Shown here piece by piece: positions 3,297-13,802 of a stretch of 64,000 nt of DNA (position 1 is its first letter; each line of letters opens with the position of its first letter). The position numbers and the translations under genes were made by a program. This DNA comes from Escherichia phage BAU.Micro_ELP-22. The stretch lies in sequence record OR699282.2. One strand, 5' to 3'. The notes beneath the pieces were generated by a model that had not been told where the DNA came from, did no database searches, and saw only the letters and a list, made by a program, of their open reading frames with translations.

Positions 3297-3304
3297 TATA
3301 AATA
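3297..3304 (+). promoter_or_regulatory. T4-type late promoter box TATAAATA
   Basis: Exact TATAAATA about 40 nt upstream of the 3343 start. Confidence 0.5.
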
Positions 3305-5737: not shown

Positions 5738-6049
5738 ATGTTTAATCCGTTTTTTGACCCGTCTGGAATGACGGAAAAAGAACTACAGTTAAAAATTAAT
5801 GAACAGTCAATGCGTTTAACTTCTGCTCGTGCTGCTGGCCTAAGCGACATGATTATTGGTAATATGCAAACTGTCTTAAATCAATGTTATGCTGAACTAG
5901 AACTTCGCCAAGGACAAAAAGAAAAAACTGTTTATGACGAAGAAGACCCATGTATCTTCGATATGGATTCATATCTAACTGACAACGAAGAGGCCCAGAA
6001 GAAGAAAAATGAAAGTACAAGGAAACAGATTTATAAGTCCCAATGGTGA
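5738..6049 (+). CDS. Hypothetical protein
   Basis: 103 aa; GGAGG RBS directly upstream; start 1 nt after preceding stop. Confidence 0.6.
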   Translation: MFNPFFDPSGMTEKELQLKINEQSMRLTSARAAGLSDMIIGNMQTVLNQCYAELELRQGQKEKTVYDEEDPCIFDMDSYLTDNEEAQKKKNESTRKQIYKSQW

Positions 6050-6527
6050 TGTGAAATGTAATCTTAACGCAGTTGTTTATGCAATCAATTGCGGTGCAGA
6101 TATCCAGTACTTACAATTGCAGGAAATTGATGAACCTGAAAGGTTGAAATTCAATGATAACTGTAAAAAATTTGGCTTAGAACAACGTATGCTGGATTAT
6201 ACAATTGAGCATGATAAAAATCATGAACTGTGGCGATATGATCCAGTATACGACAATATAAATCTGCGTGACTTTTTCTTACAAAAATGCACATCCGATG
6301 AAGCACGAAAACGTGTTGAGTATGAACTTGATTTATATGAATATTATAATATGACAAAGCTACTAAGATGTATGATATGGCTTGTTGATTATATGGAAGA
6401 AAATGAGATCTTTTGGGGTCTAGGTCGTGGAAGCTCTGTTGCATCATACTGTTTGTTTTTGATTGGACTACATATGGTAGATTCATTGAAGTACGAACTT
6501 GATGTTAACGAATTTTTGAAATGGTAG
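6009..6527 (+). CDS. Hypothetical protein
   Basis: 172 aa ORF; overlaps previous gene by 41 nt; weak RBS. Confidence 0.45.
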   Translation: MKVQGNRFISPNGDVKCNLNAVVYAINCGADIQYLQLQEIDEPERLKFNDNCKKFGLEQRMLDYTIEHDKNHELWRYDPVYDNINLRDFFLQKCTSDEARKRVEYELDLYEYYNMTKLLRCMIWLVDYMEENEIFWGLGRGSSVASYCLFLIGLHMVDSLKYELDVNEFLKW

Positions 6528-6943: not shown

Positions 6944-7270
6944 ATGACTAATAAAGTAATGACTGCATGTAAAGGTAAAGTACTGGTAACTGAACTGGAA
7001 CATGGTGAACGCAAAACAGCAGGTGGTATCGTTTTAACAAACGATGACGGTAAAATTAGAGGTATTCGTTCTCGCTGGGCAAAAGTTTATTCTGTAGGCG
7101 AAGACATTACTGATATTAAAGAAGGTCAATGGATTTTAATTGATCATGGTCGATGGTCAAGAACTATTGAAGTTGATGGTATTGAATTAAACTTGGTTGA
7201 TTATCCAGCCGCAGTTAGTTTAGTTTCAGATGAAGATCCACGAACTAAAATGCTAACCTTTGGTCGTTAA
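6944..7270 (+). CDS. GroES-like cochaperonin (functional analogue of T4 gp31 / CocO-like)
   Basis: 108 aa; KTAGGIVLT matches GroES KSAGGIVLT; GGAG RBS. Confidence 0.55.
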   Translation: MTNKVMTACKGKVLVTELEHGERKTAGGIVLTNDDGKIRGIRSRWAKVYSVGEDITDIKEGQWILIDHGRWSRTIEVDGIELNLVDYPAAVSLVSDEDPRTKMLTFGR

Positions 7271-7323
7271 TAAAATATAATTAAAGCTCGGATGAATATC
7301 TGGGCTTTTTATTTGGACAGATT

Positions 7324-7596
7324 TTGATGATAACTGATGATGGAAAATTTAGTTTCAAGGATGTAACATTAGTATCTAAAAACGGAAGATTCATGTTTGA
7401 AGATAGAAAAAATACCAAATATGTATATGAAGTTTCACATGATATGTTTAAAGTTTTATTAGTTGCATCAGCCCAAGCTGAAAGTACTGGGATTAAAAAT
7501 AAGGCAAATTCTTTTAATTTTTTATTAAATCAATTGGAAATGACAGAAGAACTTTTCACGGCTTTATTATATAATTCAGCCGATTGGATTCTATAA
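7324..7596 (+). CDS. Hypothetical protein
   Basis: 90 aa ORF. Confidence 0.4.
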   Translation: MMITDDGKFSFKDVTLVSKNGRFMFEDRKNTKYVYEVSHDMFKVLLVASAQAESTGIKNKANSFNFLLNQLEMTEELFTALLYNSADWIL

Positions 7597-7619: not shown

Positions 7620-8573
7620 ATGACCACACTATGGACTGAAAAATATCGCCCACAATCAATGGAAGATTATGTATCAAAAAACGATGCACTACGCCAGAAA
7701 ATGGAAGAATGGATTAAGACTGGTGACATTCCACATATTGGGTTTTTTGGCCCAGCAGGAACTGGTAAAACATCTGCGATCAAAGTACTAATTAATGGAC
7801 TAGTTCAAAATGGACACCTTGATCCAAGTGATGTGACCACGCTTAACATGTCCGATGAAGGCATTGATGCTGTTCGTGACAAAATCGATGCCGCAGCAAA
7901 GCTATCATGTTTTGGTAGATATCGTATTTTTGTTCTTGAAGAAATGGAGCAGATGAACCACAAAGCACAAGGTAGTTTGAAACGTGTAATGGAAGACTAT
8001 CATGAAAATGCTCGCTTTATTTTAACAAGTAACGAACCACATAAAATTCAAAAACCTATCATTTCTCGTGTTCAAGTTATTACAATCGAAAAGCATGATA
8101 TGGAACAATTCATGACTCGAATTTATAATATTCTTCTAGCAGAAGGTGTTGATTTGAGTAGTGATGATAGTGTTGAACAAGTTCAAAAGTACATCAATGC
8201 TTCCTATCCTGATTTCCGTAAAACACTAAACGTATTGCAAAGTTCAGTTGTTGATGGTAAGCTAGTAAAACTTGAAGATAGTATTGAAAATTCAGCAGGG
8301 TATCGTACTGCAATTGTTGAAGCATTAAAGGCAGGCAACATTCGCCAAATGCGTGAACAAATTGTACAAAATATCCCTGATGATGAGATGGATGCATTTT
8401 TCTCTTACTTGTACAGAAATGCTGAAATGTTCAGTACTGATGAAATCACACTGATGAAGATTAAAGTTAAAATTCGTGATGCAGTTGTTAAGCAAGCAAC
8501 CGTATCAGATCGTGAAATGAATCTTAGTGCTTTACTGTGTGAAATTGACCTAATTTGTTCGGGGAACATGTAA
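7620..8573 (+). CDS. 44: Clamp loader large subunit (RFC-like AAA+ ATPase)
   Basis: WTEKYRP motif, Walker A GPAGTGKTS, Walker B VLEEME; AGGA RBS at internal ATG 7620. Confidence 0.85.
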   Translation: MTTLWTEKYRPQSMEDYVSKNDALRQKMEEWIKTGDIPHIGFFGPAGTGKTSAIKVLINGLVQNGHLDPSDVTTLNMSDEGIDAVRDKIDAAAKLSCFGRYRIFVLEEMEQMNHKAQGSLKRVMEDYHENARFILTSNEPHKIQKPIISRVQVITIEKHDMEQFMTRIYNILLAEGVDLSSDDSVEQVQKYINASYPDFRKTLNVLQSSVVDGKLVKLEDSIENSAGYRTAIVEALKAGNIRQMREQIVQNIPDDEMDAFFSYLYRNAEMFSTDEITLMKIKVKIRDAVVKQATVSDREMNLSALLCEIDLICSGNM

Positions 8574-9199
8574 TGAAGCCACGTTGTATAGTTTTTGATT
8601 GTGATGAAGTTCTATTGGACCATATGGGTATGCTTTCTGAGTTTGTAAAACAAACTTATAATATCACACCATCAACACCATACCCATTAGAATATGATTT
8701 ATCAGACTGGTTGGGTGTTCCTCAACCTGAAGTTAAAAAGATTCTTGAACAGTTCAACCAACAATCATATTTGTTTGGGTTGTTAAAGCCAGTCGAACCA
8801 AATACAGTTGATATTGTACAAGAGCTACGTGATCGTTTTCATAAAGAAAAATTCGTAGTACTCACAAAATGTGGTAAAAAAGGCTATGGTGAAGTTTTAC
8901 GAAATGTAAATCTAATGCGTGAATTTGGTGAAAACTGCTTTGATGAGATTATTATCATAGAAATGAATGAATCAAAGAAAGAAGCATTAGAGGATTTACA
9001 AACACGATATGATGTAAAACTAATGATTGATGATTATATCAATAATATTGAAACTGCTATGGGTCTTGGTATTCCATCAGTTATGATGGGATGTTCTCAT
9101 AATACTATGTATAAGAATCATAGTGGTTTTGAATATATCGAAAACTGGACAGAACTTAGACTGAAAATTTATTCAGTACTAGGTAAATATTACAAATAA
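8573..9199 (+). CDS. Protein translationally coupled to clamp loader; HAD-like hydrolase motifs (or divergent clamp loader small subunit)
   Basis: TAATG overlap with gene 44; FDCDEVLLD resembles HAD motif I, KLMIDDY resembles motif IV. Confidence 0.5.
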   Translation: MKPRCIVFDCDEVLLDHMGMLSEFVKQTYNITPSTPYPLEYDLSDWLGVPQPEVKKILEQFNQQSYLFGLLKPVEPNTVDIVQELRDRFHKEKFVVLTKCGKKGYGEVLRNVNLMREFGENCFDEIIIIEMNESKKEALEDLQTRYDVKLMIDDYINNIETAMGLGIPSVMMGCSHNTMYKNHSGFEYIENWTELRLKIYSVLGKYYK

Positions 9200-9211: not shown

Positions 9212-9238
9212 GGGGTTTGATTCAAACCCCTTTTGTTG
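9212..9238 (+). terminator. Rho-independent terminator
   Basis: ggggtttga/tcaaacccc hairpin followed by TTTT. Confidence 0.7.
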
Positions 9239-9295
9239 TATTTTAAAAGTAGTAAATAGTATTATATGTGCTAGTTTTTAAGGATAATATAAAAT

Positions 9296-9859
9296 ATGGA
9301 CGATTTAGATTATACAGATAATGCTATTCAGCAGTTGTATGATAACAGTGGTATGTTAGATATACTTCTTGCTGTAGAGAAATATTTCGATGATAATGAT
9401 TTATATGCGTATAAAGGAATTATTGAGGGTGAGTTGGTAGAGGGGCCAATTGTAAGTAAGTATTGGTGTACTGTTACATTTAAATACTATCGTGAAAATT
9501 TTCCCGATCCTACCGCATTCTCTATTTTAGAGAAACATGGAACTAAAGTATATGTTAAAGCTGATTATGAAATAACTCCTATTAAAGAACCAAATCGTCA
9601 AGCTGACATGAAAAGTGTAGCGACACAATCTGGCTCTGTACGTATACCAAAAAATGAAAGAATCCCAGTACTATTGGTTAGAGTGCAGATTCCACGAAAC
9701 TTGATTAATCCAGAAAGTTTTGATGAATATAAACTAATGGCAGCAGAATTCAATAGTAATCCAATGAATTCTCCTGAGAATATTGAAGAACCTGTAACTG
9801 GTGATGATGTGGATTTAGATGTAGAAGTAACGGATGAGACACAAGAAGGTGGAATGTAA
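9296..9859 (+). CDS. Hypothetical protein
   Basis: 187 aa ORF. Confidence 0.5.
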   Translation: MDDLDYTDNAIQQLYDNSGMLDILLAVEKYFDDNDLYAYKGIIEGELVEGPIVSKYWCTVTFKYYRENFPDPTAFSILEKHGTKVYVKADYEITPIKEPNRQADMKSVATQSGSVRIPKNERIPVLLVRVQIPRNLINPESFDEYKLMAAEFNSNPMNSPENIEEPVTGDDVDLDVEVTDETQEGGM

Positions 9860-10539
9860 TGAAAAAGAAATTAAATGAACAAGGCTTACGTCCGCAAGTT
9901 CTCAAAGATTTGATTCATCCTATCATTAGTGTTGATGAATATACTCCTAAAATTGAAGATAGTAATATTGTTATTATGTTTCAGGTACTTAACAATTTTG
10001 ATGCAGCATATGATTTATCTTCTTTTATTGAAAAATCACCTATTGATGTAGCTGATACAGAAGCAGCAGAAACACCAAATTTAGATGGTCGATATCAAGT
10101 TTATGTTGAAATGGAACGAAATGCTGAATTCCCTGAAAAACTTTTACGTTTAATTAAAACTATTGAAAATATTTGTCCAGACCCAGGTTGGAAAATACAA
10201 CTATATGGTGTTAATGACCCAATCGATGTTGATTTTGAAGAAATACAGCAGAGAATTGATTTGGGTATTCCTAGTTCAATTAGTGAGTTCCTTGATTATG
10301 CTGGTGTTTCAGTAATCAAAGAAGGAAACATGTTGACATTAAAAACAGCATATGGTAAATTACATTACAGTACTGGAAGCGGTTTTGTTTCAGAAACATA
10401 TGTGAAAAAGTTATTAAAGAATGATACACAATTAGACACTTCTCGTCTTAGTTCCATACTAGGGGAAAGCTATACAGTACTACGAAGTGGTGATCAATAT
10501 GTAATTGGAAGAAACGGGAAATATTTGGTGTTGCGATGA
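9859..10539 (+). CDS. Hypothetical protein
   Basis: 226 aa; TAATG start overlap. Confidence 0.55.
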   Translation: MKKKLNEQGLRPQVLKDLIHPIISVDEYTPKIEDSNIVIMFQVLNNFDAAYDLSSFIEKSPIDVADTEAAETPNLDGRYQVYVEMERNAEFPEKLLRLIKTIENICPDPGWKIQLYGVNDPIDVDFEEIQQRIDLGIPSSISEFLDYAGVSVIKEGNMLTLKTAYGKLHYSTGSGFVSETYVKKLLKNDTQLDTSRLSSILGESYTVLRSGDQYVIGRNGKYLVLR

Positions 10540-11450: not shown

Positions 11451-12578
11451 ATGAAAGGTAAATATTTTTTCATTGAAAATGGCAAAGAAGTTGAGATTCA
11501 AGAATTTAACTATAATTATGTACTGAACTCTTTATTGAAACAATATGACCGTTCATCAAACAAAAAATACATTTATAATGTAATTGTTCGCCGCACCTAT
11601 GACTCATTGGGTAATCCGTTATTTGATGTAAAAACTCTGTCATTAGATGAAATCTATTTTGATAATAAACGTCTGAAAGTTCTTGATTTAATGAAGGATA
11701 AAATTCATTTTAGTAATATTAGAATTGATCCTAACATGCCAGTACCGCCATTAGAGTGTGAATATCGTGAATGGAAAGAAGGTCGTGCCAAACCACGTTT
11801 AGACTTGGTACAAACATCACCAGATGTACCTGCACCTATTGTTCTTAAGAAAAAACCTATCAACCCAGACGATAGCAGAATTGATGACATTGAAAGATGG
11901 GTTGAATTCCCTAGTACTATTGAAAAGAATTCAGTAAAAGTACTAGACTGGTTTGTAAACTTACCAGTTTGTGCACAAGAAATTGGAACTAAGATTCAAC
12001 AAATTTCAGAACGTCAATTGGATCTTAACTCAGCATTACAACAGCATAGTGATTATATTAGAATGCTTATGAATAACCTTACTGTTGCGTTGGAAACGTT
12101 GTTCCCATTGAAGCCGACCTTTACACAGAAATTGTTTGGTAAAACTGATATCAAAGTGCAACCATCAGATTTGCCAAAAGTGATGAAAGCACTAAATGAA
12201 GCAGTTAAGTATGACACTAATAAGTTTAGTGGTCTTAGTACGATGTTTTCAGAACTTAGAAACGAAGTTAATGAAATCAAAAATGAACTTGAATATGGTA
12301 AGTTGGGTTGTGAATACGCACTACGTTGTGTGGATGATGCGTTTGAATATGAATTAACATTAGAACGTATTATGAAAATGGGAATCACCACCTCCATGAC
12401 TGAAACGAGCATTATTGCAACAAGTAAGCAATATCAAGTTGATATGAATCGTATGGTAGATATTCAAACTATTACTATTCCTTTGATTATCAATCGTTTA
12501 CAATCACAGACAGGTAAAGCTGTGGATGAGAGTACTGTAGAAATTATTCGTAATCTGGCATATGGTAACAAAGAGTAA
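11451..12578 (+). CDS. Hypothetical protein
   Basis: 375 aa ORF. Confidence 0.55.
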   Translation: MKGKYFFIENGKEVEIQEFNYNYVLNSLLKQYDRSSNKKYIYNVIVRRTYDSLGNPLFDVKTLSLDEIYFDNKRLKVLDLMKDKIHFSNIRIDPNMPVPPLECEYREWKEGRAKPRLDLVQTSPDVPAPIVLKKKPINPDDSRIDDIERWVEFPSTIEKNSVKVLDWFVNLPVCAQEIGTKIQQISERQLDLNSALQQHSDYIRMLMNNLTVALETLFPLKPTFTQKLFGKTDIKVQPSDLPKVMKALNEAVKYDTNKFSGLSTMFSELRNEVNEIKNELEYGKLGCEYALRCVDDAFEYELTLERIMKMGITTSMTETSIIATSKQYQVDMNRMVDIQTITIPLIINRLQSQTGKAVDESTVEIIRNLAYGNKE

Positions 12579-12665: not shown

Positions 12666-13802
12666 ATGTCCGAGAAAGAAATCAATCCTAAAAAAGCATC
12701 CACCGCAGCTAAATCAGCAAAACGCACTACTAAAACTGCGTCTAAAGGTCATACAATTGATGCAAGTGATATTTTTAACCAAACTACAAAATCACTACCA
12801 GTACTGAAAGATGTTAAGGGAAATACTATGTCTCTAACAGTTCAAAACATCAATACTGTTGGTACAACTGCTGGTGCTGCTGTTGGGCGTTTGGCTGATG
12901 AAATTATGTCTAAAGTTAATGTAACGGATGACAATACCGAGTTTGGTAAATCAATCACCACAATTCTTACGTTGACTCGTGCAGTTGATATTGACAGTCT
13001 TCAAGAAGATAAATCAATTGTTGGTCGTATTAAGAAATTCTTTGTTAATGCTCAACAGAAAGTAGGTGATCAGTACAAAAACAGTAAAGAGCAAATTGAC
13101 GAAATTATGAAAACTCTTCAAACTGGTATTAATCGCCAGCACGGAGAATGTGAATGGCTTGATAAAGCATATAATGAAAACAAAGAATATTTGTTTGAAT
13201 TACGTGATACATTAGTTGGTTTAGAAGAAGTAACTAAAACACAAGATGCATTATTATTAGAAATGCAAGCAGACAAAAATGTAGACTCTTTTGCTATTCA
13301 AGAGCAAAAGATGATTTGTGAAGCACTTTCTAAACAAGAAGATAAGATTCGTCGTCTTATCATGATGTGCGAGCTAAGTGGTCCACGTTTGATGAGTATG
13401 AAAAAAGTAAACTTGAACACTGTTTCTAAGTTTGAAGATTTAAAATCTGTTGTTATTCCAGCATGGAAGTCTCAATTGGCTGAACAGTTAATTTCCGAGC
13501 GTCAACGTAAGGATAATGAACTAGGCAATCTAATTGATAATGAGACAAACCGTCTTTTGGAAACTAACTCTAAAATGGTTGCAGCAAATATGTTGGACGC
13601 AGCAAAGGCAAACAACCGTGGTATTGTGGATATTAAAACCTTGCGTAATGTACATAAAACGATGATTGACAGTATTGAAGCAGTTATTGAAGAAGAGAAA
13701 AAAGGTAAATTGGAACGTGAACGTGCTAAACAGGAAATTGCACAACTTTCCTATGAACTGGAAGACACTCTTCGTGAAATTGCCGAAAAAGCTAACAAGT
13801 AA
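12666..13802 (+). CDS. Hypothetical coiled-coil-rich protein (possibly TelA-like, unverified)
   Basis: 378 aa; lysine-rich N-terminus; family assignment is weak recall only. Confidence 0.55.
   Translation: MSEKEINPKKASTAAKSAKRTTKTASKGHTIDASDIFNQTTKSLPVLKDVKGNTMSLTVQNINTVGTTAGAAVGRLADEIMSKVNVTDDNTEFGKSITTILTLTRAVDIDSLQEDKSIVGRIKKFFVNAQQKVGDQYKNSKEQIDEIMKTLQTGINRQHGECEWLDKAYNENKEYLFELRDTLVGLEEVTKTQDALLLEMQADKNVDSFAIQEQKMICEALSKQEDKIRRLIMMCELSGPRLMSMKKVNLNTVSKFEDLKSVVIPAWKSQLAEQLISERQRKDNELGNLIDNETNRLLETNSKMVAANMLDAAKANNRGIVDIKTLRNVHKTMIDSIEAVIEEEKKGKLERERAKQEIAQLSYELEDTLREIAEKANK

What the first reader, a model, noticed from the sequence alone, without database searches (positions are those of the whole stretch)
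7620..9199. Clamp loader large subunit is followed by a coupled ORF with HAD-like motifs rather than a recognisable small subunit
The ORF at 8573 starts at a TAATG overlap with gene 44, the position of T4 gene 62, but its sequence shows HAD hydrolase-like motifs (FDCDEVLLD, KLMIDDY) and no similarity to gp62 as I recall it. Either gp62 is highly divergent here or a nucleotidase-like gene occupies this slot.
Basis: partly seen in the sequence, partly recalled or inferred. Interest (0 to 1): 0.4.

Follow-up and report, generated by a model that had tools for sequence, protein, structure and literature searches.

The report
Phage nucleotidase-like phosphatase beside clamp loader
The gene after the clamp-loader gene in this giant E. 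coli phage is an ordinary HAD-type phosphatase of the deoxyribonucleotidase kind, already annotated that way in sister phages, and is not a disguised clamp-loader small subunit.

Summary
A 317-aa gp44/RFC-like clamp-loader gene (7620-8573) ends in TAATG, where a 208-aa ORF (8573-9199) starts. That ORF contains FDCDEVLLD and KLMIDDY.

The window is not T4-like. It is 99.8% identical to the jumbo coliphage PBECO4 (Asteriusvirus, Rak2-like).

The 208-aa protein is a HAD phosphatase of the 5'(3')-deoxyribonucleotidase kind:
- It passes the Pfam NT5C threshold.
- D9, D11, K135 and D154 are invariant across 61 diverse relatives.

It shows no relation to gp62: no hit to Pfam Phage_clamp_A, hhalign probability 0.2%, and a different fold. 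Its T4 counterpart is the uncharacterised gp30.2 (same PHROG, phrog_420), which sits beside the ligase gene.

Sister-phage records already call it NT5C or phosphoglycolate phosphatase. The TAATG overlap is common here (11 of 121 junctions in the window) and is not conserved in relatives.

One real oddity remains, and it is already published. Profile searches find no gp62-like or gp45-like protein anywhere in the genome. The two downstream ORFs have the sizes of gp62 and gp45, but they are virion proteins, and the 226-aa one does not have a clamp fold.

The finding is ordinary and of low interest. The substrate is untested.

The parts
7283..7308 (+). Terminator-like hairpin followed by a T run, after the GroES-like gene; the likely upstream boundary of the transcription unit
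   Evidence: Consensus scan, (11-pair stem). Prediction only.
7327..7596 (+). 89-aa ORF of unknown function (phrog_16539), first gene of the unit; conserved directly upstream of the clamp loader in RaK2, GAP32 and XbC2
   Evidence: No profile similarity to gp62. No similarity to the 120-aa ORF that PA5oct-like phages carry after the clamp loader.
7620..8573 (+). Clamp-loader AAA+ ATPase, homologue of T4 gp44 and the RFC small subunit (317 aa). Walker A is GPAGTGKT and an SRC-like ISRV arginine finger is present.
   Evidence: phrog_168 E 1e-78; Pfam DNA_pol3_delta2, AAA, Rad17 and Gp44_lid; 29% identity to T4 gp44, E 1e-26; RFC small subunit E 2e-48.
8573..9199 (+). HAD-superfamily phosphatase of the NT5C (5'(3')-deoxyribonucleotidase) kind, 208 aa, member of the T4 gp30.2 family (phrog_420). 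Motif I is D9/D11, motif II T98, motif III K135, motif IV D153/D154. Residues ~15-90 form a helical cap.
9212..9240 (+). Intrinsic-terminator-like hairpin GGGGTTTGattCAAACCCC followed by TTTTGTTGT, ending the unit 13 nt after the ORF B stop
   Evidence: 8 pairs, 5 G-C. Prediction only.

Best explanation
ORF B (8573-9199) encodes a small soluble Mg2+-dependent phosphatase of the HAD superfamily. It belongs to a phage branch (phrog_420, the T4 gp30.2 family) of the NT5C 5'(3')-deoxyribonucleotidase family. By the mechanism established for HAD enzymes, Asp9 attacks the substrate phosphate to form an aspartyl-phosphate. Asp11 acts as general acid/base. Thr98 and Lys135 hold the phosphate, and Asp153/Asp154 together with Asp9 hold the metal. 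A helical cap (residues ~15-90) closes over a small-molecule substrate. The most likely substrate class is deoxynucleoside monophosphates, giving dNMP -> deoxynucleoside + Pi. This would make it one more nucleotide-pool enzyme of a phage that already encodes thymidylate synthase, dCMP deaminase, DHFR, dNMP kinase, ribonucleotide reductases, Nudix and pyrophosphohydrolase genes. It appears to be co-transcribed with the clamp loader in a three-gene unit bracketed by terminator-like hairpins. It is not a clamp-loader subunit. Shown here: fold, family, conserved catalytic residues and gene context. Inferred: substrate, metal dependence, co-transcription and role in infection.
Confidence: 0.65

Rival explanations
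1. ORF B is a highly divergent clamp-loader small subunit (gp62 analogue, A-position subunit).
For: It lies directly after the gp44 homologue with a one-base overlap, as gene 62 follows gene 44 in T4 and relatives. Its size of 208 aa is close to gp62's 187 aa. No other gp62-like protein is detectable in the genome (PMC5259590).
Against: There is no hit to Pfam Phage_clamp_A, which T4 gp62 hits at 3.5e-77. BLASTP E is 0.12. hhalign of the two families gives probability 0.2%. The confident model is a HAD Rossmann-like fold with intact catalytic residues, and no clamp-loader chain appears among the fold or sequence matches. T4-like phages that have gp62 also carry a homologue of ORF B elsewhere, gp30.2.
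Confidence: 0.01
2. ORF B is an active HAD phosphatase, but its physiological substrate is not a dNMP. Candidates are another small phosphoester (ribonucleotide, signalling or modified nucleotide, sugar phosphate, phosphoglycolate) or a 3'-phosphate DNA end.
For: The branch is diverged from NT5C, with 15-19% identity. R110 is invariant and N113 nearly invariant, and the aligned mdN does not have them. There are weak hits to the polynucleotide-kinase phosphatase PHROG: phrog_415 E 1.6e-3 here and 1.8e-6 in a Vibrio phage relative. The T4 Pnkp phosphatase appears at Foldseek rank 35. Some records call it phosphoglycolate or phosphoserine phosphatase. The gene neighbourhoods are DNA-replication and ligase genes.
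Against: The best sequence-profile and fold matches are consistently deoxyribonucleotidases. The model has a helical cap of the kind found on small-molecule HAD enzymes, which the cap-less Pnkp-type DNA-end phosphatases lack (the cap rule is established HAD knowledge). The phage has its own polynucleotide kinase/phosphatase gene (gp125). The phosphoglycolate and phosphoserine names are generic automatic HAD labels.
Confidence: 0.28
3. ORF B is a HAD enzyme that also docks physically on the clamp loader. It would be a functional stand-in for the missing small subunit, or would deliver or withdraw nucleotides at the replisome.
For: Clamp loader and HAD gene are adjacent across Asteriusvirus, Alcyoneusvirus and Mimasvirus, and lie nearby in PA5oct-like phages. 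They share a terminator-bracketed unit. No gp62 or gp45 is recognisable in the genome.
Against: The overlap is not conserved: the gaps are 1, 8 and 11 nt in RaK2, GAP32 and XbC2, and PA5oct-like phages have a 120-aa ORF in between. Overlapping starts are common in this genome (46 of 121 junctions). The whole 10-kb block is syntenic, so adjacency may simply be inherited. Family members in T4-like phages and Vibrio phage D148 are not next to clamp loaders. The protein has no collar-type helical domain of the kind that holds clamp-loader pentamers together.
Confidence: 0.03

Closest known systems
Human/mouse 5'(3')-deoxyribonucleotidases cdN (NT5C) and mdN (NT5M), and the Staphylococcus epidermidis deoxyribonucleotidase-like protein 3bwv (Pfam PF06941)
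   Same: HAD core with motifs I-IV, a helical cap between motifs I and II, the HN motif after the last strand and a similar length. These are the best fold and profile matches, and the Pfam score is above threshold.
   Different: Identity is only 15-19%. R110 (invariant) and N113 (nearly invariant) in the phage branch are not shared with the aligned mdN. The substrate is untested.
Bacillus phage PBS1 Dtm (dTMP phosphatase, PF06941; PMC12697855)
   Same: A phage-encoded member of the same Pfam family with measured dNMP phosphatase activity. It serves as a precedent for a phage using this fold to shape dNTP pools.
   Different: PBS1 uses it to remove dT so that it can make dU-DNA. The papers consulted here describe DNA methyltransferases in these phages but no dU-DNA or base hypermodification. 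The sequence relationship to ORF B was not tested here.
T4 gp30.2 and its homologues in T4-like phages (phrog_420, function unknown)
   Same: Same PHROG family: T4 gp30.2 7.4e-94, ORF B 4.6e-42, nt-1 gp30.2 1.2e-42. 25% identity with aligned DxD and DD motifs.
   Different: T4 gp30.2 has a ~70-aa C-terminal extension (278 aa) and sits beside the DNA ligase gene, not the clamp loader.
T4 gp62, clamp-loader small subunit (Pfam PF16790 Phage_clamp_A)
   Same: Only the gene position after the gp44 homologue and a similar length.
   Different: No sequence, profile or fold similarity.
T4 polynucleotide kinase/phosphatase, HAD-type 3'-phosphatase domain
   Same: Same superfamily and DxDxT chemistry. 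Weak hits only: phrog_415 E 1.6e-3 and Foldseek rank 35.
   Different: ORF B carries a cap domain and no kinase domain. The phage encodes a separate polynucleotide kinase.

Membership tests
T4 gp62 / Phage_clamp_A (PF16790) | Sequence match to the family profile | tested here: not met
   T4 gp62 hits PF16790 at 3.5e-77. ORF B has no hit at E<=0.1. An HMM of 8 gp62 sequences finds nothing in 1,314 ORFs of the genome, best E 0.72.
T4 gp62 / Phage_clamp_A (PF16790) | Profile-profile similarity to gp62 homologues | tested here: not met
   hhalign of A1 (ORF B family) against A3 (gp62 family) gives probability 0.2%. BLASTP E is 0.12.
T4 gp62 / Phage_clamp_A (PF16790) | Helical clamp-loader subunit fold with a collar contribution | tested here: not met
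   [not shown]
T4 gp62 / Phage_clamp_A (PF16790) | Gene immediately downstream of the gp44 gene | tested here: met
   This is not diagnostic, because the whole block is a Rak2-type arrangement, not the T4 45-44-62 order.
HAD superfamily phosphatases | Motif I DxDx(T/V), motif II S/T, motif III K, motif IV (D/E)D | tested here: met
   D9-C-D11-E-V, T98, K135 and D153-D154 are invariant in 14 close relatives. D9, D11, K135 and D154 are invariant in 61 diverse relatives.
HAD superfamily phosphatases | Rossmann-like core with the motifs at the strand ends | tested here: met
   Model with pLDDT 95. Strands 4-8, 93-99, 125-129 and 147-153 end at the motif residues. There are hundreds of HAD structural matches.
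HAD superfamily phosphatases | Mg2+-dependent phosphoryl transfer through an aspartyl-phosphate | not testable with these tools
   Requires an enzyme assay.
NT5C 5'(3')-deoxyribonucleotidase (PF06941) | Score above Pfam's gathering threshold | tested here: met
   35.9 bits against 24.8, E 9e-9, covering residues 6-195. 28 of 61 relatives also match.
NT5C 5'(3')-deoxyribonucleotidase (PF06941) | Closest solved structures are family members, with a helical cap inserted between motifs I and II | tested here: met
   [not shown]
NT5C 5'(3')-deoxyribonucleotidase (PF06941) | Dephosphorylates 5'- and 3'-dNMPs | not testable with these tools
   No member of the phrog_420 branch has been assayed. PBS1 Dtm is the only phage PF06941 member with data that turned up here.
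T4 gp30.2 family (phrog_420) | Match to the PHROG profile over most of its length | tested here: met
   ORF B scores 4.6e-42 over profile positions 11-204 of 267. T4 gp30.2 scores 7.4e-94. Pairwise BLASTP E is 2e-7.
Polynucleotide kinase-phosphatase 3'-phosphatase domain | Cap-less HAD domain, usually fused to a kinase | tested here: not met
   Only a weak hit, phrog_415 E 1.6e-3. A cap is present and there is no kinase domain. A separate PNK gene exists in the genome.

The most novel reading that the evidence does not exclude
The gp44-like clamp loader of Rak2-like jumbo phages works without any gp62-like or gp45-like partner, and the adjacent, apparently co-transcribed HAD phosphatase is a physical accessory of that orphan loader. 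That would place a nucleotidase at the replisome. My evidence makes this unlikely but does not exclude an interaction.
Probability: 0.03. Interest if true: 0.6.

Novelty: already known. Interest (0 to 1): 0.12.

Why it matters
It matters little in itself. The gene is identical to one found in many published Asteriusvirus genomes, some of which already label it NT5C, and it fits a well-known enzyme family. The useful outcomes are corrections. The window should be read as a Rak2-like jumbo phage rather than a T4-like one. The T4 counterpart of this gene is the uncharacterised gp30.2, so a substrate assay on either protein would give a function to phrog_420, a family with about 1,500 detectable relatives at 50% clustering. 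The adjacent open question is already in the literature: these phages keep a gp44-type clamp loader but have no recognisable small subunit or sliding clamp.

Tried and rejected
1. Single-sequence search of ORF B against PDB sequences gave only chance hits, SRP54 at E 0.12. A 14-sequence profile was still weak. The 61-sequence profile worked.

2. I tested whether the next two ORFs (187 aa at 9296-9859, 226 aa at 9859-10539) are the missing gp62 and gp45, because their sizes match T4's 187 and 228 aa. This was rejected:
- They have no Pfam hits.
- hhalign probabilities are 0.08% and 0.8%.
- Both were found in phAPEC6 virions by mass spectrometry (PMC7247149).
- A terminator-like hairpin separates them from ORF B.

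3. The 89-aa upstream ORF as a gp62 analogue: hhalign probability 0.2%. It is also unrelated to the 120-aa ORF inserted in PA5oct-like phages.

4. Genome-wide HMM searches for gp62, gp45 and a second HAD paralogue covered the window plus PBECO4 1-345,000. None was found.

5. Pfam scans of several unannotated ~210-280-aa proteins near the polymerase genes, as clamp candidates, gave no hits.

6. The gene after the HAD homologue in Vibrio phage D148 as a clamp loader: no similarity.

7. Literature searches for gp30.2 and for NT5C in bacteriophages gave no papers.

8. A T4-type late promoter TATAAATA near these genes: none. There are only 4 copies in the window against 12 expected.

Full report
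**What is in the sequence**

The ORF at 7620-8573 (317 aa) ends ...ATG TAA, and the A of the stop is the A of the next ATG (8573). The second ORF runs to 9199 and encodes 208 aa. It begins MKPRCIVFDCDEVLLDH and contains YDVKLMIDDYINN, so both quoted strings are present, at residues 8-16 and 149-155. Relatives all start at the same Met-Lys, which fixes ATG 8573 as the start.

**Which genome this is**

A 6-kb stretch around the finding is 99.8% identical to Escherichia phage PBECO4. It is >=96.6% identical to 121Q, SP27, phAPEC6 and other members of the genus Asteriusvirus. These are ~350-kb Rak2-like jumbo myoviruses, not T4-like phages.

The local gene order is: virion protein, 103-aa ORF, 172-aa DnaE fragment, 114-aa ORF, GroES-like, 89-aa ORF, clamp loader, HAD, then two virion proteins. 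The same order is found in RaK2, GAP32 and Xanthomonas phage XbC2. PA5oct-like Pseudomonas phages keep most of it. It is unlike the T4 order 45-44-62-regA-43. 'The position of T4 gene 62' is therefore a weak frame of reference here.

**The upstream gene**

ORF A is a gp44/RFC-type clamp-loader ATPase:
- phrog_168 E 1e-78.
- Pfam DNA_pol3_delta2, AAA, Rad17 and Gp44_lid.
- 29% identity to T4 gp44 over 253 residues, E 1e-26.
- Best NCBIfam similarity to the archaeal RFC small subunit, 1.7e-48.

**The downstream gene is a HAD phosphatase of the deoxyribonucleotidase kind**

Family and profile evidence:
- ORF B passes Pfam's threshold for NT5C (PF06941; 35.9 bits against 24.8; E 9e-9 over residues 6-195) and touches the general HAD families.
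- An exhaustive profile search finds 1,490 cluster representatives at E<=1e-3.
- In an alignment of 61 of these, including T4 gp30.2 and down to 19-30% identity, D9, D11, R110, K135 and D154 are invariant. Among 14 close relatives, T98 and D153 are invariant too. These are HAD motifs I (DxDxV), II (T), III (K) and IV (DD).
- 28 of the 61 hit PF06941, and no other specific family recurs.
- The 61-sequence profile hits solved 5'(3')-deoxyribonucleotidases over their full length: 3bwv 1.8e-7, human mdN 4e-7, cdN 8e-4. The alignment shares the four motifs plus the HN motif and a C-terminal Trp. No clamp-loader chain appears at E<=1.

Structural evidence:
- An AlphaFold model from 14 sequences is confident (pLDDT 95.2, pTM 0.90). 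It shows the HAD strand order with a helical insertion (residues ~15-90) between motifs I and II. That is the cap type seen in small-molecule HAD enzymes.
- Foldseek against the PDB is topped by 3bwv, mdN and cdN.

**It is not gp62**

- T4 gp62 hits Pfam Phage_clamp_A at 3.5e-77. ORF B does not hit it.
- BLASTP between the two gives E 0.12.
- I built a gp62 family alignment from eight T4-like phages spanning 25-53% identity. Comparing it profile-to-profile with the ORF B family gives probability 0.2%.
- T4 has its own homologue of ORF B: gp30.2, beside the ligase gene. It is 25% identical with aligned DxD and DD motifs (E 2e-7) and belongs to the same PHROG, phrog_420 (T4 7.4e-94, ORF B 4.6e-42). 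The KVP40-like phage nt-1 has it in the same place.

Phages that do have gp62 therefore also have this HAD gene elsewhere.

**How special is the coupling?**

It is not special. With a simple gene model of the window, 11 of 121 same-strand junctions have the same one-base overlap, 15 have ATGA, and 46 overlap in some way. The overlap is replaced by gaps of 1, 8 and 11 nt in RaK2, GAP32 and XbC2. PA5oct-like phages have a 120-aa ORF between the two genes. In Vibrio phage D148 the homologue is not next to a clamp loader.

Terminator-like hairpins at 7283-7308 and 9212-9230 bracket the 89-aa ORF, the clamp loader and the HAD gene. The three are probably one transcript, but this is a pattern match only.

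**Likely function**

By family, the enzyme should hydrolyse a phosphomonoester through an Asp9 phospho-intermediate, with dNMPs as the most likely substrates. A phage PF06941 member, PBS1 Dtm, has been shown to be a dTMP phosphatase (PMC12697855).

The PBECO4 genome also encodes thymidylate synthase, dNMP kinase, dCMP deaminase, DHFR, aerobic and anaerobic ribonucleotide reductases, Nudix hydrolases and a nucleotide pyrophosphohydrolase (PMC7247149). A nucleotidase fits that set as a pool-shaping enzyme.

The substrate is not shown. The branch is only 15-19% identical to assayed enzymes, and the aligned mdN does not share its invariant R110 or nearly invariant N113. A DNA-end phosphatase role is less likely, because of the cap and because the phage has a separate polynucleotide kinase gene.

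**The missing partners**

The paper on the Rak2-like phage CBB states that these phages have gp43, gp44, gp41, gp61 and gp32 homologues but lack gp62, gp45 and gp59 (PMC5259590). I re-tested this with profile HMMs of gp62 and gp45 against all 1,314 ORFs of >=60 aa in the window plus PBECO4 positions 1-345,000. The best E-values were 0.72 and 0.18, so nothing was found. The HAD HMM hits only ORF B.

The two ORFs after ORF B are 187 and 226 aa, the sizes of T4 gp62 and gp45, so I tested them:
- They have no Pfam hits.
- hhalign probabilities against gp62 and gp45 are 0.08% and 0.8%.
- Both were detected in phAPEC6 virions, with 5 and 4 peptides and ~30% coverage.

They are not the missing parts. 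The orphan clamp loader remains an open, already published question.

**Prior knowledge and verdict**

The identical protein is present in many deposited genomes. It is labelled '5' nucleotidase, deoxy (pyrimidine), cytosolic type C (NT5C)' in slurp01 and Sharanji, 'phosphoglycolate phosphatase' in 121Q, BF and XbC2, and 'hydrolase (KVP40)' in phAPEC6.

The finding is a correct observation of an ordinary, already annotated gene. Interest is low.

Noticed in passing
window 7620-8573 and the whole PBECO4-type genome (L018-L023): The gp44-like clamp loader is an orphan. Profile HMMs of gp62 and gp45 find nothing in 1,314 ORFs of the genome (best E 0.72 and 0.18), in agreement with the CBB paper's statement that Rak2-like phages lack gp62, gp45 and gp59. 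What clamp it loads is unknown.
   Followed up: partly
window 6009-6527 (+): A 172-aa ORF carries only a piece of bacterial DNA polymerase III alpha (PF07733 positions 16-95, E 2e-9). From memory of E. coli DnaE, untested here, it seems to end just before where the catalytic PDxDxDF motif would come. It is conserved at this size and position in RaK2, GAP32, XbC2 and PA5oct-like phages, so it is a maintained gene rather than recent debris. It overlaps the upstream 103-aa ORF by 41 nt.
   Followed up: partly
[not shown]
   Followed up: yes
window 8573-9199, residues R110 and N113: The phrog_420 branch has an invariant Arg (R110) and a nearly invariant Asn (N113) in the helix after motif II. The aligned human mdN does not share them. 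This may be a substrate-specificity feature of the phage branch. Its position relative to the active site could not be measured.
   Followed up: no
L008 3134-3496 (Pseudomonas phage vB_Pa-PAC2, PA5oct-like): PA5oct-like phages have a 120-aa ORF of unknown function between the clamp loader and the HAD gene, overlapping the HAD start. It has no PHROG hit and no similarity to the 89-aa ORF that precedes the clamp loader in Rak2-like phages.
   Followed up: partly
window 6944-7270 (+): A GroES/T4 gp31-like co-chaperonin (Cpn10 E 2e-5; phrog_931 'head morphogenesis') sits inside the replication-gene block and is followed by a terminator-like hairpin at 7283-7308. The genome has a second GroES-like gene (PBECO4 gp507).
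   Followed up: no
window 3297-3304 and window-wide: The T4-type late-promoter octamer TATAAATA is under-represented, with 4 copies against 12.3 expected. One copy lies just upstream of the 806-aa virion protein gene (start 3316/3343).
   Followed up: no
window 11451-12578 and 12666-13802 (+): A 375-aa ORF with no Pfam hit lies next to a 378-aa protein that related records annotate as TelA-like or tellurite resistance. By eye its C-terminal half looks similar to the TelA-like neighbour, so the two may be a paralogous pair. This was not tested.
   Followed up: no
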